The position numbers and the translations under genes were made by a program. From the IMG/VR virus record IMGVR_UViG_2657245588_000004: a DNA stretch of 37,702 nucleotides; one strand, written 5' to 3'. Positions 1,136 to 21,816 of the stretch are shown piece after piece. The notes under the pieces are model-generated. The model searched no databases. It worked only from the letters and a program-made list of their open reading frames with translations, and was not told the DNA's origin. Positions within the stretch are counted from its first letter, which is position 1, and each line of letters begins with the position of its first letter. The DNA comes from a virus. Taxonomy: Duplodnaviria > Heunggongvirae > Uroviricota > Caudoviricetes.

Positions 1136-2812
1136 CTAAGCAACATGTAGTTCATCGTTGGCGGAAGTGGCTGCTTTGCGCTCCTGCTCAATAGATAGAG
1201 ACTCTCTATATTCTTTCGCCTCTGCAAACATTGTCCAGTGGGCGTTGATGTTCATGTCTTCAATAACTGATTTGATTTCTTTTAAATTTACGTTAAAAAA
1301 CTCTTTTCGTGAGTTAATTTTATTGACCTGCTTTTCGTTGAAAACTTTATGCAGATGGTTTTCTAATGATGGTGCATCATCACTATAAATCATCGCATGA
1401 ACATCGAACGAAAAAGGAACACTAGCATCTCCGAGTTCACGAACACGATCAAGTGGTTCAAGGCGGCGTGTCATTCCAATTTTATATACATCTTCGCCAA
1501 ATGAACCAATATTACTAATGATATAGACGTGGCCTGATCTGGTTTGTTGAGCCATAGAAATAGCTCGTTGATTTTTAGCTTCAGCTTCTTCATATTTTAA
1601 CTGTAGTTCAGCTATTTTTTGCTCTAAAGCTAAGCGTTGTTCTTCATTTGCAAGCATAAGTTCTTTCGTTGCTTTATTTATAGCTTGCTGAATAGCTTTT
1701 TCTTCTTTTTCAGCTTCTTTTATCGCTTTTTCATATTCTCTACGAGCTCTTTCCTCTTCACGAAGCTGTTCTTTAATCCTTCTTTGCTCTTCTTTTTCTT
1801 CGAGCATAATTTCATTAACTGCTACACCCCATTTTAGCTCGTTGAGTCTTGCCTGAAGATAGATGTCACTTATTTTTGCGGACCTAAAGGCAGAGCCATT
1901 GTAATTTACTAGTTGAAATGCATCTTTTATTTCTTGGGAAAGTTTTCCAAAATTGTTGTGTTTGACTTTTGATAAAATACTGTCAACTCTTCCATTGAAG
2001 GCATCCAAAACAAAGTTTATGGCAGTATTACGCCTGTTTTGCTCAACATAATCACACGAAGCAGCTTTATTAGTTTTTATTAATGATTTGGTTAACTCTC
2101 TGGCTTTTTGTAATTCCTTGCCTGCATCTGTAAATTCATAATTTTCTGCCAGCTCATCAAGTACACTACGGTTAGGGATGATCCATTCATCACCATAACC
2201 TTCAATTTTATTTTTCATTGATTTTGCAACTGCTTCATATTTTTCTGCAAACTCTTTAGCTTCATATGCTGAACCAGCAATCTCCTTTGCTCTTTCTTCT
2301 GCATCAGAAATAATTTTTACTGCATTGTCATTAGCATTTGAGATTAGCTCATTTGCTTTATTATTAGCATTATCAAGACGTTCTTTGGCTTTCAGGCGTG
2401 CATCGCGAGCGTCTTTGGTGATTGCTATAGCTTCGCTATTAGCGTTGCTTATTGTCATCTGAGCTTGATAATTTGCTTCGTTTACTGTTTTAGCCGCCTT
2501 AATTTGGGCTTCATCTATTTTTTGCTTGGCTATTGAGTCCGCATTTTTTATCTTATTCTCTGCATCCATTACTGCGCTGTGCAATTCTTCGTATTGCCAC
2601 AATGGTGCTGCTCGCCCTTCAAGCTCTGATAATTCTCGTACGGTCTGTGCTAGTTTTTCTTGATTTTCAATCAGTTGGTTAGAAAGGGCTATGTTGTTAG
2701 CTGTCAGGTTATCTATAGCCGCTTTGTGTTTTTTACTTTGTTTAAATAATATTACAGCTAGAACAGGGGCGAGAAATGCTAATAAGAGTATAACGATGGC
2801 AAATGAATTCAT
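1136..2812 (-). CDS. Accessory protein: N-terminal TM helix, long coiled-coil, central DUF4041-like region, C-terminal GIY-YIG (T5orf172-type) nuclease-like domain
   Basis: 558 aa; hydrophobic N-terminus MNSFAIVILLLAFLAPVLAVILF; E/K/A-rich heptad-like stretches; C-terminus GHVYIISN..(10)..VYKIGMTRR fits the GIY-x10-YIG pattern; visibly AT-rich versus flanks. Family assignment from memory of motifs, not a search. Confidence 0.7.
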   Translation of the reverse strand: MNSFAIVILLLAFLAPVLAVILFKQSKKHKAAIDNLTANNIALSNQLIENQEKLAQTVRELSELEGRAAPLWQYEELHSAVMDAENKIKNADSIAKQKIDEAQIKAAKTVNEANYQAQMTISNANSEAIAITKDARDARLKAKERLDNANNKANELISNANDNAVKIISDAEERAKEIAGSAYEAKEFAEKYEAVAKSMKNKIEGYGDEWIIPNRSVLDELAENYEFTDAGKELQKARELTKSLIKTNKAASCDYVEQNRRNTAINFVLDAFNGRVDSILSKVKHNNFGKLSQEIKDAFQLVNYNGSAFRSAKISDIYLQARLNELKWGVAVNEIMLEEKEEQRRIKEQLREEERARREYEKAIKEAEKEEKAIQQAINKATKELMLANEEQRLALEQKIAELQLKYEEAEAKNQRAISMAQQTRSGHVYIISNIGSFGEDVYKIGMTRRLEPLDRVRELGDASVPFSFDVHAMIYSDDAPSLENHLHKVFNEKQVNKINSRKEFFNVNLKEIKSVIEDMNINAHWTMFAEAKEYRESLSIEQERKAATSANDELHVA

Positions 2813-2832: not shown

Positions 2833-3429
2833 TTAATTCGAGACTATTGTACTTCTTATACAAGCAACCACTTCAATATCAGAAAATGCACATTCAAAGC
2901 TATTCTCTGCTGTTGTAATTTTAATCATTCCTTTAGGAAGCCTTGTGATTTTTCGAATGGAATAGGTTCCGTCGATATTGATTAACCAGTTTCCATCAAG
3001 TACTTCAGAAAATTTTTGATCACAAATGTATGTGACGAGTCCATCCTGAACAACAATTGGTGATGAAAGGTTTGCAGGAAGAAATGATGAATCGAAGACA
3101 TATGAACCGTCTTCAATCATTTTGCCTGCGGCAAGGCGAAACTTAACAAGCTCTTCTGTAGCTGCTGTCAGCGAGCTTTGCTTAAGGCCTTGTCCGGTAG
3201 TTAACCATTTGAGGGAGGTTCCTGTTTCAAGAGCACATTGGATTATCCAGTCAGCAGGAAATGTATCCCGCAAATACCTGTTCGCTAGTGTGCTTTTTGA
3301 TACTTCCAAGTGATCAGCTAAAGCCTGTCGTGTCGTAAAGCCATAGGCTTCGACTAATCGCTCAATCGCAGCCTTACCACCTTTATTGGGATTTATTTTG
3401 ATCTCACTTGGGTACTTTGATGTTGACAT
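2833..3429 (-). CDS. cI: CI-like lysogeny repressor (186-type, N-terminal HTH)
   Basis: 198 aa; HTH-like segment FTTRQALADHLEVSKSTLANRY; position between int and divergent Apl/CII genes. Confidence 0.75.
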   Translation of the reverse strand: MSTSKYPSEIKINPNKGGKAAIERLVEAYGFTTRQALADHLEVSKSTLANRYLRDTFPADWIIQCALETGTSLKWLTTGQGLKQSSLTAATEELVKFRLAAGKMIEDGSYVFDSSFLPANLSSPIVVQDGLVTYICDQKFSEVLDGNWLINIDGTYSIRKITRLPKGMIKITTAENSFECAFSDIEVVACIRSTIVSN

Positions 3430-6433: not shown

Positions 6434-8841
6434 GTCATGCCGATATGAACAAGTGCTGCGGCTTTAACGAGGCTGCCGCAGCATTCTCATGGAACAGCCC
6501 GAAAAAGGCCATTAACCCTTATCTGGACCCGGCGGAAGTTGCGCCGGTTTCTACGCTTTCAAACCTGATCACTCTGTACGCTGCCGATAACGAGCAGGAA
6601 CAGTTGCGCCGCGAGGCACTGAGTGATCAGGTCTGGGAGCGTTATTTCTTTAATGAATCACGTGATCCTGTCCAGCGCGAAATGGAGCAGGATAAGCTCA
6701 TTAGCCGGGCAAAGCTGGCGCATGAGCAGCAGCGTTTTAATTCAGACATGGTCATTCTGGCGGACGTCAACGCCCAGCCTTCCAATATCAGCAAGCCGCT
6801 GATGCAACGTATTGAATACTTCAGCAGCCTGGGCAGGCCAAAGGCTTATTCCCGCTATTTACGTGAGACGATTAAGCCATGTCTGGAACGACTGGAGCAT
6901 GTACGCGACAGTCAGCTATCTGCATCTTTTCGCTTTATGGCAAGCCATGAAGGGCTGGACGGCCTGCTGATCCTGCCTGAAATGAGTCAGGATCAGGTGA
7001 AACGCCTGTCCACCCTGGTAGCTGCGCATATGAGTATGTGCCTTGATGCAGCTTGTGGTGATTTGTATGCCACCGATGACGTTAAGCCAGAAGAAATCCG
7101 CAAGACATGGGAAAAGGTGGCAGCGGAAACCCTGCGTCTGGATGTCATCCCACCTGCGTTTGAGCAACTCCGTCGGAAAAGAAACCGCCGTAAACCCGTG
7201 CCCTATGAACTCATTCCGGGTTCGCTGGCGCGTATGTTGTGCGCCGACTGGTGGTATCGGAAATTATGGAAGATGCGTTGCGAATGGCGGGAAGAGCAGT
7301 TGCGCGCTGTTTGCCTGGTCAGCAAAAAAGCATCTCCTTATGTCAGCTATGAAGCCGTGATGCATAAACGTGAGCAGCGCCGTAAGTCGCTGGAGTTTTT
7401 CCGTTCTCATGAACTGGTGAACGAAGACGGCGACACGCTGGACATGGAGGATGTGGTAAACGCCAGCAGCAGCAACCCTGCGCATCGCCGCAATGAGATG
7501 ATGGCCTGTGTTAAAGGTCTGGAGCTTATCGCGGAAATGCGCGGTGACTGCGCCGTTTTCTACACTATCACCTGTCCGTCGCGTTTCCATTCCACGCTAA
7601 ATAACGGCAGACCAAACCCGACCTGGACAAACGCGACGGTAAGACAAAGCAGCGATTATCTGGTCGGCATGTTTGCTGCATTTCGTAAGGCGATGCACAA
7701 AGCCGGGTTGCGCTGGTATGGCGTGCGGGTGGCTGAGCCGCATCATGATGGCACAGTTCACTGGCACCTGTTGTGTTTCATGCGCAAAAAAGACCGCCGT
7801 GCCATCACTGCATTACTGCGTAAGTTTGCCATCCGTGAAGACCGCGAGGAGCTGGGCAATAACACTGGGCCGCGCTTTAAGTCTGAGTTGATTAACCCGC
7901 GCAAAGGAACGCCGACAAGCTACATCGCGAAATATATCAGTAAGAACATTGACGGTCGTGGTCTGGCTGGCGAGATCAGCAAGGAAACGGGTAAATCTCT
8001 GCGTGATAACGCTGAATACGTGAATGCCTGGGCGTCTCTGCATCGTGTTCAGCAATTCCGCTTCTTTGGTATTCCGGGGCGTCAGGCTTACCGTGAACTT
8101 CGCTTGCTGGCTGGTCAGGCGGCAAGGCAACAGGGTGACAAAAAAGCAGGTGCGCCGGTACTGGATAACCCGCGTCTTGATGCCATTCTGGCTGCTGCTG
8201 ATGCTGGTTGTTTTGCCACCTACATCATGAAGCAGGGCGGCGTACTGGTTCCCCGTAAATATCACCTCATCAGAACCGCTTATGAAATCAACGAAGAGCC
8301 GACCGCCTATGGCGATCACGGCATTCGTATTTATGGCATCTGGTCACCCATTGCAGAGGGCAAGATCTGCACTCATGCAGTGAAGTGGAAAATGGTTCGT
8401 AAAGCCGTTGACGTTCAGGAGGCGGCAGCCCAGGGCGCTTGCGCCCCTTGGACTCGTGGCAATAACTGTCCCCTTGCTGAAAATTTGAACCAACAGGAGA
8501 AAGATAAATCAGCTGATGGGGACCCCAGAACGGACATTACCAGCATGGATGACAAGGAGTTGCACGATTACCTGCACAGTATGAACAAAAAAGAGCGCCG
8601 GGAACTGGCTGCAAGGTTACGCCTGGTGAAACCGAAACGGCGTAAAGACTACAAACAGCGAATTACAGACCATCAGCGACTGCAGCTCGTGTATGAGCTG
8701 AAGTCCAGAGGATTTGATGGCAGCGAGAAAGAGGTCGATTTACTCCTTCGCGGAGGCAGTATTCCGTCAGGAGCAGGCCTGCGTATCTTCTATCGGAACC
8801 AGCGTTTGCAAGAAGATGATCAGTGGCGGAACCTGTATTAA
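6430..8841 (+). CDS. A: Replication initiation endonuclease (P2 gpA-like, rolling-circle HUH)
   Basis: 803 aa; HUH-like VHWHLL and tyrosine motif YIAKYISK; position after early operon. Confidence 0.85.
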
Positions 8842-8933
8842 TTACGCGGGTTAACAATTCGTGCTCTTTATAATACCAGGCATATCAGGCTGATGAACGT
8901 AAAAAAACGTTTTACATCAGTAAGATTATTATA

Positions 8934-8953
8934 TACTGTAAATATAAACAGTG
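8934..8953. promoter_or_regulatory. LexA (SOS) box TACTGTAAATATAAACAGTG
   Basis: CTGT-N8-ACAG read directly, 17 of 20 matches to the E. coli consensus TACTGTATATATATACAGTA; about 40 bp upstream of the next ORF. Confidence 0.6.
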
Positions 8954-8994
8954 GTTATGCGTACAGTATTGCGTGTGGTGTCATAGGAGGAAAG

Positions 8995-9183
8995 ATGCAG
9001 GACTATTTTTTGGAGTCTTTGAAGCTCCAGCGCATTGATTTTTTTCTTAAGCTTGTAGCGGCTAGTGAGTGTAGTGATGAAGAGAAGGGGCTGGCTCTGC
9101 AGTGGGTTTCTGAATTGACTGATGAACTCATGGCAAAAATCAGAACCCACGAATACAACCGCTCAATGGATGTCATCAGCTGA
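8995..9183 (+). CDS. Small SOS-module protein, possible Tum-like antirepressor N-terminal part
   Basis: 62 aa from ATG 8995 with AGGAGG upstream, downstream of the LexA box; function inferred from position only. Confidence 0.4.
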   Translation: MQDYFLESLKLQRIDFFLKLVAASECSDEEKGLALQWVSELTDELMAKIRTHEYNRSMDVIS

Positions 9184-9193
9184 GGTGACTTTT

Positions 9194-9427
9194 ATGCGCA
9201 TTGAAATAATGATCGATAAAGAGCAGAAGATTAGCCAGTCTACCCTGGACGCCCTTGAATCCGAGCTTTACCGCAATCTGCGCCCCCTGTATCCCAAAAC
9301 GGTAATTCGCATTCGCAAAGGTAGCTCTAACGGTGTGGAACTAACCGGACTGCAACTGGACGAAGAAAGAAAACAAGTGATGAAAATTATGCAGAAGGTG
9401 TGGGAAGACGACAGCTGGCTGCATTAA
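9194..9427 (+). CDS. DinI-family protein
   Basis: 77 aa; MRIEIMIDKEQ...IRKGSSNGVELTG...WEDDSWL resembles DinI (recalled); GAGGTGA RBS. Confidence 0.65.
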   Translation: MRIEIMIDKEQKISQSTLDALESELYRNLRPLYPKTVIRIRKGSSNGVELTGLQLDEERKQVMKIMQKVWEDDSWLH

Positions 9428-9562
9428 GAAACGTTGCTGGCGTCTGAACTTGCTTCTGGCGTCAGCAAGGTTGAACAACGAGCCCTTGCGAGGCGTTAGC
9501 TCTGTAGTGCATGTCTATGCCGCATGAGATCGCATGATCGTTTGAGGATCGTTTTTGCTAAG

Positions 9563-9587
9563 GCCCGCCAGAACTGGCGGGCTTTTG
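9563..9587 (+). terminator. Rho-independent terminator (gcccgccagaactggcgggc + TTTT)
   Basis: GC-rich inverted repeat followed by T-run, read directly. Confidence 0.5.
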
Positions 9588-9631
9588 CGTAGATCATGCA
9601 GGTGCATGAAAACCACTACATAAAGCGGGCA

Positions 9632-9650
9632 GGCGTGGCGGGGATACGAG
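9632..9650. other. Candidate cos cohesive-end sequence GGCGTGGCGGGGATACGAG
   Basis: First 13 nt match my recollection of the 186/P2 19-nt cohesive end (GGCGTGGCGGGGAAAGCAT for 186); recalled, not verified. Confidence 0.35.
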
Positions 9651-9736
9651 CGCGCGCAACTTGAGATAGTGTGATACTTATCTGAGAAATCTTAACAAGG
9701 TTCAATACAATACCCTTTCAAAAAAAGGGGAGTGTG

Positions 9737-10888
9737 ATGTTTGTAAAAAATAACTTTAATACAAATAATTTCGATGCGGAATTAGTTGAAGCGATTGGTA
9801 ATAGGCTGGAAAACAACCAATTTTCGGATGCAATACTTGCAGGAACCAAATATCTAACAACTTTGCTGCGTGAAAAAGGGCAATGTGAAGGGGATGGGGC
9901 TCAGCTTGTTGGTACTGTTTTGGGTGGACAATCACCTAGAATCCAAATTAATAGTCTTCAATCTGTATCAGAGCAGGACGAACAGCGCGGATTTGAAGCA
10001 CTATTAAGAGGCTACTATCAGTGTATAAGAAATCCAAGGACACATGACAATTTCCCTGATACAGAAGATTCCTGCATGAGAATATTGATCATGTTGGATA
10101 CTTTTATTAAGTATTTAAAAAGAGATGTTGCTGAGTTCGATTACACAGCAATTCTTGAAAGAATTTATGAGGTTCACTTTGTAAATAATTCTGATTATGC
10201 AGAAGCTTTAATATCACAAATTCCAGAAAAAAAACTACTAGATTTTTTCCAAAGTTTAATTTCTCGCTTTAATGAAAGGCCAACCAAGGAAATTGATTCT
10301 ATATTCAAAGCAATAAACCAACGCTTTTCAGGAGAGGAAGAAAAAGCCGCAATGCGGTTGCTAGGTGATGAGTTACGCAAGGCTAGCAATAATGTTGAGT
10401 TTGCTAATGTATTTAGAATAATTAAGCCGAGCGCATGGAGAAATCTTCCTGATGATGTTTTAATTAGAATGGAAAATATAATCATCGAAGAGTGCAAAAA
10501 AGGATATTTGGATTTCTATTCTGATGCGACCAAAGGAGCTATAGGAACATGGGGTAATACATTTGGTAGCAAATTTAAAAGAAGAGGTGATCTTGGTGAT
10601 GCTTTAATTGGATTGTTATATGATAGTTGGTATACGCAAAATTATGTTGCGAAATATTACGTTTTTTCAATCCCTTCTATCATTACTGATGATGTGAAAG
10701 TTAAGGAGTTAGCTGATGCTTTAGCTTATGCCACCATTGTAAATGGTGCTAAGCTTTTACGAACAAAATTGATTGATGCATGTAAAAATTATCCTGATAA
10801 GTTGAAAGAGCATCTTAGGGATGCTGTTCAGCAACGGATGGATAGTGATAAAAAATATGCGGAAGAATTATTAGGTCAAATAAGCTGA
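9737..10888 (+). CDS. Accessory protein with N-terminal HEPN-like region (Rx4H motif, TIGR02391/Ymh-like)
   Basis: 383 aa from ATG 9737 (track start 9734 is GTG); GGGGAG RBS; motif CIRNPRTHDNF (R-x4-H); visibly AT-rich; lies between candidate cos and portal gene. Confidence 0.65.
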   Translation: MFVKNNFNTNNFDAELVEAIGNRLENNQFSDAILAGTKYLTTLLREKGQCEGDGAQLVGTVLGGQSPRIQINSLQSVSEQDEQRGFEALLRGYYQCIRNPRTHDNFPDTEDSCMRILIMLDTFIKYLKRDVAEFDYTAILERIYEVHFVNNSDYAEALISQIPEKKLLDFFQSLISRFNERPTKEIDSIFKAINQRFSGEEEKAAMRLLGDELRKASNNVEFANVFRIIKPSAWRNLPDDVLIRMENIIIEECKKGYLDFYSDATKGAIGTWGNTFGSKFKRRGDLGDALIGLLYDSWYTQNYVAKYYVFSIPSIITDDVKVKELADALAYATIVNGAKLLRTKLIDACKNYPDKLKEHLRDAVQQRMDSDKKYAEELLGQIS

Positions 10889-19712: not shown

Positions 19713-20564
19713 TTATTTCATTTCGTGTGGCATATTTATGGCTTTAATTTTTTCGTGGTAATGATTAAACTCAATATGAGTATTGGTAAAATTGGATTCA
19801 AATGTATTCATTAAATTGGAATATAATGATTCATATGATAAGGATACTTTTTTTCCATTTTTTTCTGCAGTTGTGCTAATGTACCTATGTACTGCAGAAA
19901 AAAGAAAATGACCTCTAAGCCACTTTCTGTATTCTATCGATTTTGATTTGAAAGATGAATCGATGTTATCTGGTTCCACACCTAATTTTTCAATGATGGT
20001 GTTTTTGTAACTCGTGATTTTTTGCTCGCAAATTTCATTTGATTTTCTAGATTTCATGAAACGATCTGCACTGTCACCAATAACTGAAATGCCTTTTCTA
20101 TAAATATGATTGTATATATCAAGTTTTATTAGGGGTTCCATTTTGGTATAAAAGTCTTCTGTCCAAGAATCGACGTTGACATCGTTCATTATCTTTTGAG
20201 GTAATTTTCCTAGAGTTTTTATTGCCTTATATATGCCTGTTTTGTCAATAAACGTGTTTTCGATGGAGTGCCCATAAGTTTTTACAATGCGACTATCAGC
20301 GTTTTCCTCATTTTCAAATGTAGTGAAGTCTGCATCACATGCAATTATAATTTGAAGATCTTCATCAGTAACTCTATCAATATATTTTTTTAATTCTTCA
20401 CAGCCGCCAACATCTTTGATTTCAACCTTTAATGAACTAGCTTTATTAAAGATGATTTCCCAAAAGCAAATATCATCTGGGCCTTCAACATAAACCATGG
20501 CTTCAGCTTGGTAAAATAAATTCATTACATTTTCTGCTTCGGCAGAATAATGGAAATCATCCAT
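19713..20564 (-). CDS. Toprim-like (DUF4435/RloB-like) partner of the ATPase; AriB/AbiLii-like
   Basis: About 283 aa from ATG 20564 (alternatives 20594, 20648); N-terminal VYVEGPDDICFWEII then IIACDADF (E..DxD Toprim-like); 8-nt overlap with upstream ATPase stop; AT-rich. Confidence 0.65.
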   Translation of the reverse strand: MDDFHYSAEAENVMNLFYQAEAMVYVEGPDDICFWEIIFNKASSLKVEIKDVGGCEELKKYIDRVTDEDLQIIIACDADFTTFENEENADSRIVKTYGHSIENTFIDKTGIYKAIKTLGKLPQKIMNDVNVDSWTEDFYTKMEPLIKLDIYNHIYRKGISVIGDSADRFMKSRKSNEICEQKITSYKNTIIEKLGVEPDNIDSSFKSKSIEYRKWLRGHFLFSAVHRYISTTAEKNGKKVSLSYESLYSNLMNTFESNFTNTHIEFNHYHEKIKAINMPHEMK

Positions 20565-21816
20565 GAACCAATTTCTCCATATCAAAGATTGCATTTCGAT
20601 ATTTAGAAGCCACTTCTGGTGAATGCGTAGCGGCGATAATTTGCGCATTAGGATTAAGTTGTTTGATTGCAGGTATTATTTTTCGTTGCCATGCAATATG
20701 TAGCGATAATTCTGGTTCATCAGTAAGATAGATGAAAGGTTTGTTTTGCTGTAGCAAAGTTTCAATAAAAAGAATTAATAGCTGTTTTTCACCAGACGAT
20801 AAATTACTATGGCTAATCGGCCCATGCTCGTTTTCTATTACTAGCTCACCGGAGATAAAATTAAATTTTTTATCGGTTATGAACTCATGTAATGTTTCTA
20901 AAAATAGATTTATAGGAAGAAATATGTTTTTTATTTTCTCCTCGGATTTTAAAGACATCTTTATAATTCTTTGCGTCTTTCGTAATGCCTCAAATGATCT
21001 GTAATCTACATTTAAAATATTTCTGTTATTTTTTTCTGCAAGTCGTAATTCTTCAAATGTTTTGGCAATAGATTCAACGTGAAAGTTAATCTTCTTTCTG
21101 ACATCACTATCAAAAGCTCCAAGCTGAGAATATGCAGCTATTAAATTTCTACGTTCTTTTTCTTTATCAAAAGAAAAGTTAAATGTGTCATCGATACCAT
21201 CTTCTTTACTATAAAGAATAGAAGCAAGAACCTCTTTCTGTAATATTGCAGAAACATCACGAGCTCTTTGTGATAAATAAAGTTGATATTTTGTTAGGTT
21301 CTGCAATAATTGTTCTAATCGGTAATCAACAGGGTTGATTAATTTTGAGCCATATTTGTCTCTGATTTCAAAATCTTCACCGCTTCTAAGTCGGTAAACT
21401 GATAGAGAAGATAAAGCAACTAATTTATCTAACTCTAACTTAAGTTTTTCAACGTCTTCCTGATATTTTCTCCTCATATATATAGGTAGTCTACGATCTT
21501 CAAAGGATCTGATAATATATTTCTTTCTAGAAATTGTATATTCAAACGTAGGCAAAGCTTTAGTTATGTCAAATTTACTCACAACTTTTATTGTTTTAGT
21601 TTTGCTTCCTTCTTTTATTTTTATTGTTACATTATCAAAACTATTCTCATTTAGTGATTCGAGTTCTAATGCCAGAACTGAGTGAAGAATATTCATAAAG
21701 GTTGTTTTACCGGTCCCATTTCGACCAATAATAATATTTACATCTTCATTAAATGAACATGATGCATTTAGTCTTCCCCAAAAACCTTCAATCTTGACAC
21801 TAGATAATCTAAACAT
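20557..21816 (-). CDS. ABC-type ATPase (AAA_15/21-like), AriA/AbiLi/OLD-N-terminal-like
   Basis: 419 aa; Walker A GRNGTGKTT, signature-like LSSGEKQ, Walker B FIYLTDEPELSLH, H-loop ATHSPE; AAGGA RBS. Confidence 0.8.
   Translation of the reverse strand: MFRLSSVKIEGFWGRLNASCSFNEDVNIIIGRNGTGKTTFMNILHSVLALELESLNENSFDNVTIKIKEGSKTKTIKVVSKFDITKALPTFEYTISRKKYIIRSFEDRRLPIYMRRKYQEDVEKLKLELDKLVALSSLSVYRLRSGEDFEIRDKYGSKLINPVDYRLEQLLQNLTKYQLYLSQRARDVSAILQKEVLASILYSKEDGIDDTFNFSFDKEKERRNLIAAYSQLGAFDSDVRKKINFHVESIAKTFEELRLAEKNNRNILNVDYRSFEALRKTQRIIKMSLKSEEKIKNIFLPINLFLETLHEFITDKKFNFISGELVIENEHGPISHSNLSSGEKQLLILFIETLLQQNKPFIYLTDEPELSLHIAWQRKIIPAIKQLNPNAQIIAATHSPEVASKYRNAIFDMEKLVHG

What the first reader, a model, noticed from the sequence alone, without database searches (positions are those of the whole stretch)
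8934..9427. LexA-boxed SOS module with a small ORF followed by a DinI-like gene
A near-consensus LexA box (CTGT-N8-ACAG) sits about 40 bp upstream of a 62-aa ORF, which is followed by a DinI-family ORF and then a strong terminator. In phage 186 the SOS-inducible antirepressor Tum is encoded near cos, and I recall its C-terminal part being DinI-like. Here the module appears split into two ORFs, which would be a useful natural dissection of antirepressor versus DinI functions.
Basis: partly seen in the sequence, partly recalled or inferred. Interest (0 to 1): 0.55.

Follow-up and report, generated by a model that had tools for sequence, protein, structure and literature searches.

The report
Split Tum antirepressor SOS module
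This is the DNA-damage switch of a 186/Fels-2-type prophage: a LexA-repressed promoter drives a 62-residue antirepressor and a separate DinI-like gene. The split arrangement is already published, and deleting a 61/62-identical copy in E. coli HS abolishes induction.

Summary

- **Context:** the window is a 186-like (Peduoviridae) prophage.
- **Operator and genes:** after replication gene A lies a near-consensus LexA box (8934-8953). It sits 41 nt before a 62-aa ORF (8995-9183). A 77-aa DinI-family gene follows 10 nt later (9194-9427).
- **Homology to Tum:** a profile built only from relatives of the 62-aa ORF hits residues 6-48 of 186 Tum (E 5e-7). The DinI ORF is 41% identical to Tum's C-terminal half.
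- **Prior knowledge:** this is the tumA/tumB arrangement annotated in phage PSP3 and described for Fels-2 (Bunny 2002, as cited by Lemire 2011).
- **Experimental proof elsewhere:** in E. coli HS prophage DuoHS the same ORF is 61/62 identical and the deletion primers match this window exactly. An in-frame deletion of it, or lexA(Ind-), abolishes mitomycin C induction (Nat Microbiol 2025).
- **Frequency:** the module occurs in 1143 of 5426 complete E. coli genomes.

Additions from this work:
- The operator looks like a colicin-type double SOS box.
- tumA is under strong purifying selection (dN/dS 0.07) and often occurs without dinI.
- The Tum type tracks the N-terminal domain of the CI repressor, not its C-terminal domain.
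- The "strong terminator" lies 134 nt beyond the stated end.

The parts
8911..8916 (+). -35 hexamer TTTACA of the SOS promoter (counterpart of 186 p95)
   Evidence: It lies 17 nt upstream of TACTGT. It is among the most conserved columns in 28 aligned upstream regions from different species, while the spacer varies. 186 p95 is annotated as TTCACA-18-TACTGT.
8934..8939 (+). -10 hexamer TACTGT, inside LexA box 1
   Evidence: This follows the annotated 186 p95 -10. The site is conserved. The consensus promoter scan did not list it because it matches only 3 of 6 positions of TATAAT.
8934..8953 (.). LexA (SOS) box 1, TACTGTAAATATAAACAGTG
   Evidence: 17 of 20 matches to the consensus. It is the only such site in the window, and 0 of 100 shuffles give one. 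A box is conserved upstream of the homologous ORF in 32 of 34 loci checked. lexA(Ind-) blocks induction of the HS prophage, which carries the identical box.
8949..8968 (.). Putative LexA box 2, overlapping box 1 (16-mer core GTGG-N8-ACAG at 8951-8966); colicin-type double SOS box
   Evidence: ACAG occurs at +27 from the first CTGT in 24 of 28 relatives and is as conserved as box 1; conservation collapses just downstream. The 45-nt operator matches the region upstream of colicin genes on more than 1000 plasmids. Colicin operators are known to bind two LexA dimers (PMC2994835). In this window the left half-site is poor, with 7 mismatches to the 20-mer.
8985..8990 (+). Shine-Dalgarno sequence AGGAGG for tumA
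   Evidence: Read from the sequence. It is conserved as AGGAGG or GGAGGG in relatives.
8995..9183 (+). tumA: 62-aa antirepressor, homologue of the N-terminal half of 186 Tum
   Evidence: phrog_698 at 3.6e-38. HMM link to Tum residues 6-48. 61/62 identical to E. coli HS ECHS_RS04495, whose in-frame deletion abolishes MMC induction. 98.4% identical to Fels-2 STM2728. dN/dS 0.07. The AF2 model is a two-helix hairpin with pLDDT 86.7.
9182..9187 (+). Shine-Dalgarno sequence GAGGTG for the dinI-like gene, overlapping the tumA stop codon
   Evidence: Read from the sequence. The gap between the tumA stop and the dinI start is 8-12 nt in relatives.
9194..9427 (+). tumB: 77-aa DinI-family protein, homologue of the C-terminal half of 186 Tum
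   Evidence: Pfam DinI 6.6e-23. 41% identical to Tum 71-145. 78% identical to PSP3 TumB. 100% identical to the E. coli HS protein. Matches E. coli DinI structure 1GHH at 2.7e-6.
9434..9468 (+). Hairpin directly after the dinI stop codon, without a U-tract
   Evidence: Seen in the fold. A similar sequence follows tumB in PSP3. Its function is unknown.
9560..9590 (+). Intrinsic terminator (GC-rich stem plus TTTT); probable end of the SOS transcript
   Evidence: Seen in the fold. The segment 9509-9659 is 96% conserved in E. coli HS and Fels-2, where it follows an extra cargo gene.
2833..3429 (-). cI: 198-aa immunity repressor of the 186 type, the presumed target of TumA
   Evidence: Pfam Phage_CI_repr 8e-32 plus Phage_CI_C 3.5e-27. 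About 30% identical to 186 CI along nearly its full length: 31.8% by tblastn over residues 22-189, 29% in the MAFFT alignment.

Best explanation
This is the SOS-induction operon of a 186/Fels-2-type temperate phage.

In an undamaged lysogen, LexA occupies the operator. The operator overlaps the -10 element of the promoter TTTACA-17-TACTGT. It is probably a colicin-type double box that binds two LexA dimers, which would keep basal expression very low.

DNA damage activates RecA and LexA cleaves itself. The promoter then fires and a short transcript is made, encoding TumA and the DinI-like TumB and ending at the terminator at 9560-9590.

TumA is a 62-residue two-helix protein. It binds the prophage CI repressor and stops it holding the lytic promoter, as shown biochemically for full-length 186 Tum. 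The prophage then enters lytic growth. No repressor cleavage is needed, and the block is reversible once LexA is restored.

TumB, like host DinI, most likely binds RecA filaments and tunes the strength or duration of the SOS signal. It is an accessory, not the trigger.

What is shown: the sequence features, the homologies, their conservation, and, in a 61/62-identical copy, the need for tumA and for cleavable LexA.

What is inferred: direct TumA-CI binding for this variant, the CI N-terminal domain as the contact, LexA occupancy of box 2, and the role of TumB.
For: - Layout int / cI / apl-cox / cII / fil / B / dam / A / tumA / dinI / portal, as in 186.
- LexA box is significant and conserved.
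- TumA is homologous to Tum 6-48. DinI is homologous to Tum 71-145.
- PSP3 annotates tumA as 'UV induction of prophage' and tumB as similar to dinI.
- In E. coli HS DuoHS, in-frame deletion of ECHS_RS04495 or lexA(Ind-) abolishes MMC-induced lysis and virion foci. The deletion primers match window 8975-8997 and 9181-9203 exactly and leave dinI intact. That protein is 61/62 identical, DinI is 77/77 identical, and box 1 (8934-8953) is identical; box 2 differs at 3 spacer positions.
- Purifying selection: dN/dS 0.07 over 348 pairs.
- tumA occurs alone, without dinI, in 13 of 33 species-level loci and in phages ESSI-2, YenM_324 and ENT90. This fits dinI being an accessory.
- Double box.
- The CI N-terminal domain tracks Tum type.
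Against: - No binding or expression data exist for this exact sequence.
- TumA shows no BLASTP alignment with 186 Tum or PSP3 TumA, so transfer of the biochemical mechanism rests on profile-level homology plus genetics in HS.
- Box 2 has a poor left half-site here (GTGG).
- The link between the CI N-terminal domain and TumA type can also be explained by linkage. The mosaic break between this phage and DuoHS falls inside cI, so the N-terminal domain travels with the early region.
- Non-polar dinI deletions in Gifsy prophages had no measurable effect on induction (Lemire 2011), so TumB's role is unclear.
Confidence: 0.9

Rival explanations
1. The two ORFs are a decayed tum gene: a recent nonsense or frameshift mutation split a fused Tum, and the upstream piece is a non-functional remnant.
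For: 186 has a single fused 146-aa Tum. In PSP3 the two genes are in frame, separated only by TAG ATT.
Against: The split form keeps a 62-codon ORF in 30 species-level loci with dN/dS 0.07. Each ORF has its own Shine-Dalgarno sequence. The relative frame of dinI takes all three values across relatives with an 8-12 nt gap, so the split is old and maintained. There are 484 protein clusters at 90% identity. Deleting the upstream ORF alone abolishes induction in HS.
Confidence: 0.02
2. The LexA-like sequence is a chance match or only a promoter element, and the operon is not LexA-controlled.
For: The bare CTGT-N8-ACAG pattern is expected about 0.5 times per window by chance. No binding was measured here.
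Against: The 20-mer match is never seen in shuffles. The box and its position relative to the -35 element are conserved while the spacer varies. The same position in 186 is the annotated LexA site of p95. lexA(Ind-) blocks induction of the HS prophage, which has the identical box. The operator is nearly identical to colicin operators.
Confidence: 0.03
3. TumA triggers induction by a route other than sequestering CI through its N-terminal DNA-binding domain. Examples are disrupting the C-terminal oligomerisation wheel, or acting on another regulator such as Apl or CII.
For: No direct data exist on the contact surface. The link with the N-terminal domain could be linkage, since the mosaic break lies inside cI. 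The HS paper says only that tum 'inhibits pro-lysogenic regulators'.
Against: 186 Tum is described as binding CI and preventing operator binding (Shearwin 1998, as cited). Phages with 98-100% identical TumA have CI C-terminal domains only 24-55% identical, the same as between Tum types, while their N-terminal domains stay 59-84% identical. One TumA is unlikely to recognise such different C-terminal domains.
Confidence: 0.2
4. The DinI-like TumB, not TumA, is the functionally important product for the phage (for example by prolonging RecA activity), with TumA only assisting.
For: dinI is 100% conserved between this phage and DuoHS. 186 makes truncated DinI-like Tum forms annotated as modulating SOS induction.
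Against: The HS deletion left dinI intact and still abolished induction. 13 of 33 loci, and several phages, carry tumA without dinI. dinI deletions in Gifsy prophages had no effect.
Confidence: 0.03

Closest known systems
Tum of coliphage 186 (p95-tum SOS operon)
   Same: Same genomic place (after A, near cos). LexA box overlapping a TACTGT -10 element. A CI repressor of the same two-domain family. N-terminal antirepressor domain and C-terminal DinI-like domain, both homologous to the two ORFs here.
   Different: In 186 the two domains are one 146-aa polypeptide, with internal starts giving DinI-like truncated forms. p95 has a single LexA box, and orf97 follows. Here there are two genes, a probable double box and no orf97. 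TumA is too diverged from Tum for BLASTP to detect.
tumA/tumB of phage PSP3
   Same: The same split: a small upstream gene annotated 'similar to 5' end 186 tum; UV induction of prophage', and a downstream dinI-like gene 78% identical to the one here.
   Different: PSP3 TumA belongs to a different subfamily (phrog_1993 versus phrog_698) and shows no BLASTP match. The two PSP3 genes are in frame, separated by TAG ATT. PSP3 has a single LexA box.
Fels-2 STM2728 / STM2726.1 and E. coli HS DuoHS tum (ECHS_RS04495) / ECHS_RS04500
   Same: Essentially the same module. TumA is 61/62 identical and the relative frame is the same. Against E. coli HS, DinI is identical, and box 1 is identical while box 2 differs in its spacer. 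The DuoHS copy is experimentally required for MMC induction together with cleavable LexA.
   Different: The CI repressors differ: 55% identity to DuoHS CI, with a divergent C-terminal domain. Fels-2 and HS carry an extra gene between dinI and the terminator.
Gifsy-1/2/3 dinI-antirepressor operons (gfoA, gftA, gfhA)
   Same: A LexA-controlled operon combining a small antirepressor with a dinI homologue. Induction occurs without repressor cleavage (Lemire 2011).
   Different: The gene order is reversed (dinI first). The phages are lambdoid, and the paper describes a different repressor family (GfoR/GtgR, with DicA and RacR as members). Similarity of those antirepressors to TumA was not tested here.
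Colicin operators (two overlapping SOS boxes)
   Same: The sequence CTGT-N8-(A/C)CAGTGGTTAT..GTACAGTAT is shared almost base for base, including its position relative to the -35 element. In colicins it binds two LexA dimers and gives very tight repression (PMC2994835).
   Different: Here it drives a phage antirepressor rather than a toxin. LexA occupancy of the second box is untested for this promoter.
E. coli DinI (PDB 1GHH)
   Same: Same Pfam family and length. Aligns end to end, including the C-terminal W-E-D acidic helix region.
   Different: Phage-borne and co-transcribed with an antirepressor. RecA binding is untested.

Membership tests
Tum-type LexA-controlled antirepressor (N-terminal domain of 186 Tum / PSP3 TumA) | Sequence homology to residues ~1-60 of 186 Tum | tested here: met
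   BLASTP is negative. Both proteins hit phrog_698, phrog_8554 and phrog_1993. An HMM built from window-ORF relatives only hits Tum 6-48 with 34 bits, E 5e-7 at Z=1e6, and no decoy ORF scored.
Tum-type LexA-controlled antirepressor (N-terminal domain of 186 Tum / PSP3 TumA) | Gene preceded by a LexA operator overlapping its promoter | tested here: met
   The 20-mer has 3 mismatches and is unique, with 0 of 100 shuffles matching. It is conserved in 32 of 34 loci checked. Actual LexA binding is not testable here.
Tum-type LexA-controlled antirepressor (N-terminal domain of 186 Tum / PSP3 TumA) | Located after replication gene A in a P2/186-like phage that has a 186-type two-domain CI | tested here: met
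   Pfam Phage_GPA for the upstream gene. Phage_CI_repr plus Phage_CI_C for cI. Annotated layout of the 100%-identical phage.
Tum-type LexA-controlled antirepressor (N-terminal domain of 186 Tum / PSP3 TumA) | Required for SOS induction of the prophage; binds CI and blocks its DNA binding | not testable with these tools
   The genetic requirement is shown for the 61/62-identical DuoHS gene. CI binding is shown only for 186 Tum in the literature.
DinI family (Pfam PF06183) | Match to the family model above the curated threshold, over the full length | tested here: met
   81.3 bits against a 24.2-bit cut-off, covering profile positions 1-63 of 63. phrog_189. Matches structure 1GHH at 2.7e-6.
DinI family (Pfam PF06183) | Binds RecA filaments and modulates SOS | not testable with these tools
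   Inferred from family membership only.
Colicin-type double SOS box | Two CTGT-N8-ACAG boxes overlapping by one or two bases | tested here: inconclusive
   Box 1 has perfect cores. Box 2 is GTGG-N8-ACAG, offset by 15 nt and overlapping box 1 by 1 nt. The left core has 2 mismatches, as in the two colicin operators aligned.
Colicin-type double SOS box | Second box conserved as an element, and similar to bona fide colicin operators | tested here: met
   ACAG at +27 in 24 of 28 relatives, with information content equal to box 1. The operator aligns with regions upstream of a colicin-like tRNase and a pore-forming colicin.
Rho-independent terminator | GC-rich hairpin followed by a U-run downstream of the last gene | tested here: met
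   At 9560-9590 there is a stem with 8 G-C or C-G pairs, then TTTT. It lies 134 nt after the dinI stop codon. The simple consensus scan did not report it.

The most novel reading that the evidence does not exclude
A single, almost invariant TumA acts on many CI repressors that differ strongly, because it recognises their conserved N-terminal DNA-binding domain. The repressors are 40-55% identical overall, with C-terminal domains as low as 24%. Co-resident P2/186-like prophages would then be cross-induced in trans, as Gifsy prophages are; up to 4 copies of the module occur per E. coli genome. The colicin-type double SOS box would give this switch a high, all-or-none damage threshold, shared by horizontal transfer between colicin plasmids and phages.
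Probability: 0.3. Interest if true: 0.4.

Novelty: already known. Interest (0 to 1): 0.15.

Why it matters
This is the trigger that converts DNA damage into prophage induction for a very common group of enterobacterial P2/186-like prophages. The module is present in about a fifth of complete E. coli genomes. The biology is established, so the value here is mainly in annotation.

- **Annotation gap:** the antirepressor gene is called 'hypothetical protein' by PGAP and in most phage records. It is sometimes mis-started at an upstream ATG that runs through the operator, and sometimes mislabelled 'levan regulatory protein'. It has no Pfam family. Meanwhile the neighbouring DinI gene tends to receive the 'Tum' or 'SOS' label.
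- **Testable additions:** the colicin-type double SOS box, and the tracking of Tum type with the CI N-terminal domain, are modest leads on induction threshold and cross-talk.

Tried and rejected
- **Direct BLASTP** of the 62-aa ORF against 186 Tum and PSP3 TumA, and of Tum(1-70) against PSP3 TumA, gave no alignment. Homology had to be shown with profiles.
- **Pfam** has no family for the 62-aa ORF.
- **PDB** sequence search found nothing.
- **Foldseek** with the AF2 model gave only generic helical hairpins, none at E 0.001 or better.
- **phmmer against 1.84 billion representatives** found 66 relatives, nearly all stand-alone proteins of 50-100 aa and none a fused Tum. The single-sequence search does not bridge to 186.
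- **Rfam** found nothing in 8800-9800, so the conserved hairpin after dinI is unassigned.
- **The consensus promoter/terminator scan** missed both the promoter and the real terminator.
The single protein worked.
- **Bunny et al. 2002** could not be read. Its content is cited through Lemire 2011.
- **A text search for TumA/TumB** returned only irrelevant papers.
- **Pseudogene reading** was considered and rejected.
- **Downstream Hypoth_Ymh gene as part of the SOS operon** was considered and rejected. A strong terminator and promoter-like sites separate it.
- **186 orf97** has no homologue here, and none in the Fels-2/HS cargo gene either.

Full report
**What the window is.** The window is a 186-like prophage of the Peduoviridae.
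- The 8842-9620 segment is 100% identical to Escherichia phage vB_EcoM-813R9 and 95-99% identical to many Klebsiella, Salmonella and Escherichia P2-like phages.
- The annotated twin shows this order: int, a cargo gene, cI, cox/apl, cII, fil, B, orf80, a zinc-finger gene, dam, A, then a 'hypothetical protein', an 'SOS induction modulator', a Hypoth_Ymh gene, portal and terminase.
- Phage 186 has the same order, with p95, a LexA site, tum, t95a, orf97 and t95b after gene A.

**The observation.** It holds, with one caveat about the terminator.
- *LexA box.* TACTGTAAATATAAACAGTG lies at 8934-8953. The bare CTGT-N8-ACAG pattern is not significant: there is one hit, and 40 of 100 shuffles give at least one. 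The 20-mer consensus at 3 or fewer mismatches hits only here, and no shuffle gives a hit.
- *Upstream ORF.* The ATG of a 62-codon ORF is at 8995, 41 nt downstream, preceded by AGGAGG. The mechanical 96-aa ORF from 8893 would run through the operator.
- *DinI ORF.* Ten nucleotides after the TGA stop, a 77-codon ORF (9194-9427) begins. Its GAGGTG ribosome-binding site overlaps that stop codon. It scores 81 bits on Pfam DinI.
- *Terminator.* The sequence just after the stop codon is a hairpin without a U-tract (9434-9468).

**Relation to Tum.**
- The DinI ORF aligns with 186 Tum residues 71-145 at 41% identity, E 3e-24.
- The 62-aa ORF gives no BLASTP alignment with Tum.
- The ORF hits phrog_698 (3.6e-38), phrog_8554 (2.4e-8) and phrog_1993 (2e-3). 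Tum(1-70) hits phrog_1993 (1.5e-23), phrog_8554 (3.4e-12) and phrog_698 (5.9e-6).
- As an independent test, I took relatives found from the window ORF alone, built an HMM and searched 186 Tum together with 466 ORF translations from all six frames of the window. Tum residues 6-48 scored 34 bits, E 5e-7 at Z=1e6. Of the 466 translations only the query ORF itself scored.
- The shared motif is (Q/E)R(I/V)-x-(L/M/F)-(I/V/F)-x-(R/K)-L-x-A-x3-C-x4-(K/R)-E-(L/I)-A-L-x-(W/L)-(I/V)-x-E.

**It is already known.**
- PSP3 annotates tumA ('similar to 5' end 186 tum; UV induction of prophage') and tumB ('similar to dinI and 3' end of 186 tum'). The window DinI is 78% identical to TumB.
- The Fels-2 record carries the same pair, and its small ORF is 61/62 identical to the one here.
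- Lemire et al. [quoted passage not shown] 2002). [quoted passage not shown]
- Most directly, the 'Phollow' paper (Nat Microbiol 2025, PMC12055606) made an in-frame deletion of 'tum' (ECHS_RS04495) in the E. coli HS prophage DuoHS. It showed that this deletion, or lexA(Ind-), abolishes mitomycin-induced lysis and virion assembly.
- Their junction primers match window 8975-8997 and 9181-9203 exactly. They removed precisely this 62-codon ORF and left dinI intact.
- DuoHS Tum is 61/62 identical to the window ORF, its DinI is 77/77 identical, and LexA box 1 is identical; the second box differs at 3 spacer positions. The prophage sits at the same rcdA-proximal site.

**How common and how constrained.**
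- The 779-bp module is found in 1143 of 5426 complete E. coli genomes, with up to four copies per genome. PGAP names the genes 'hypothetical protein' and 'DinI-like family protein'.
- There are 484 protein clusters at 90% identity, none with a Pfam domain.
- In 33 loci from different enterobacterial species, the ORF is 62 codons in 30 of them.
- dN/dS is 0.07 over 348 pairs, and every pair is below 1.
- DinI follows in about 20 loci, always 8-12 nt after the stop codon but in any of the three relative frames. It is absent in 13 loci and in phages ESSI-2, YenM_324 and ENT90.
- The split is therefore old and maintained, not a decayed fusion, and DinI is a dispensable accessory.
- AlphaFold2 predicts a two-helix hairpin with pLDDT 86.7. 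It has no informative structural match.

**The operator is probably double.**
- I aligned 28 upstream regions anchored on CTGT. The conserved blocks are TTTACA (-35), a variable 17-nt spacer, TATACTGT, AAACAGTG, an AT-rich run, and then a second ACAGT at +27. Conservation collapses after that.
- The second ACAG is present in 24 of 28 regions. This gives a second box overlapping the first by one base (GTGG-N8-ACAG, 8951-8966).
- The same 45 nt match the regions upstream of colicin genes on more than 1000 mostly small mobilizable plasmids. The alignment with a colicin-like tRNase promoter and a pore-forming colicin promoter is nearly base for base.
- 186 and PSP3 have a single box, as do the Pantoea, Erwinia and Tatumella relatives.
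- Occupancy of box 2 here is an inference. Its left half-site is poor.

**Target of TumA.** The cI gene (2833-3429, minus strand) is of the 186 type, with Phage_CI_repr and Phage_CI_C domains. I compared CI domains across phages grouped by Tum type.

| Comparison | CI N-terminal domain identity | CI C-terminal domain identity |
|---|---|---|
| Among phages with 98-100% identical TumA | 59-84% | 24-55% |
| Among phages with 186-type Tum | 78-98% | 60-87% |
| Between the two groups | 31-48% | 24-36% |

- Phages with 98-100% identical TumA have CI proteins only 40-55% identical overall.
- Tum type therefore tracks the DNA-binding domain, which fits an antirepressor that blocks operator binding.
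- The caveat is linkage. Against DuoHS, the DNA mosaic break falls inside cI: the C-terminal domain is unalignable, the N-terminal domain through cII is 83% identical, and B through dinI is 97% identical.

**Downstream.**
- The terminator segment 9509-9659 is 96% conserved in E. coli HS and Fels-2. There it follows an extra 225/243-aa gene that is unrelated to 186 orf97.
- In this window no gene lies between dinI and the terminator, so the SOS transcript most likely encodes only TumA and TumB.

**Verdict.** The feature is real and correctly interpreted, and it is already described and genetically validated in a near-identical prophage. Interest is low. The residual value lies in the annotation gap and in two small testable points: the double SOS box, and the N-terminal domain of CI as the likely determinant of specificity.

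Noticed in passing
window 1136-2812 (-): A 558-aa cargo gene lies between int and cI. It matches the PD-Lambda-1 anti-phage defence protein (PADLOC 3e-120; Pfam DUF4041 plus T5orf172/MUG113). The twin phage record annotates it as 'chromosome segregation ATPase'.
   Followed up: partly
window 19713-21816 (-): Two overlapping minus-strand genes lie between tail-completion gene S and baseplate gene V. They match AriA (419 aa, 5.7e-40, AAA_21/AAA_15) and AriB (311 aa, 2.8e-24, DUF4435). This looks like a PARIS defence system in a P2 cargo hotspot.
   Followed up: partly
window 9734-10888 (+): A 383-aa gene follows directly after the SOS-operon terminator, in the place of 186 orf97. Its N-terminal region matches Hypoth_Ymh (Pfam 2.9e-23) and resembles PD-Lambda-3_B and Aga_HEPN defence models (2.4e-14, 2.1e-9). 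It has its own promoter-like sites at 9682-9711 and 9741-9769. It is probably another defence cargo gene.
   Followed up: partly
window 9434-9468 and 9428-9508: A strong hairpin without a U-tract sits directly after the dinI stop codon. A similar sequence, including GGTTGAACAAC, follows tumB in PSP3. There is no Rfam match. E. coli HS lacks this stretch, and similarity to HS ends exactly at the dinI stop codon. Its function is unknown; it could be an RNA stabiliser, a partial terminator like 186 t95a, or a recombination boundary of the cargo slot.
   Followed up: partly
proteins P0147, P0149, P0152, P0155, P0164, P0169, P0172, P0177, P0181 (distant TumA relatives): Many distant stand-alone TumA homologues carry a C-terminal tail of the form KNPQxGG...GGxx(L/F)Q, which the window protein lacks. 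The meaning of this glycine-rich tail ending in LQ or FQ is unknown.
   Followed up: no
locus L009 (Klebsiella phage ST258-KPC3phi16.2 cI): This phage's CI ORF is 311 aa and contains two tandem copies of the N-terminal HTH domain before the C-terminal domain. It is either a duplicated DNA-binding domain or an annotation that joins two genes.
   Followed up: no
window 8893-9183 and loci L001, L003: Annotation is inconsistent across records. The tumA homologue is called 'hypothetical protein', 'levan regulatory (domain) protein' or 'unknown', and is sometimes started at the upstream ATG that overlaps the LexA operator. In phage 500465-1 the DinI gene is extended to 318 nt.
   Followed up: yes
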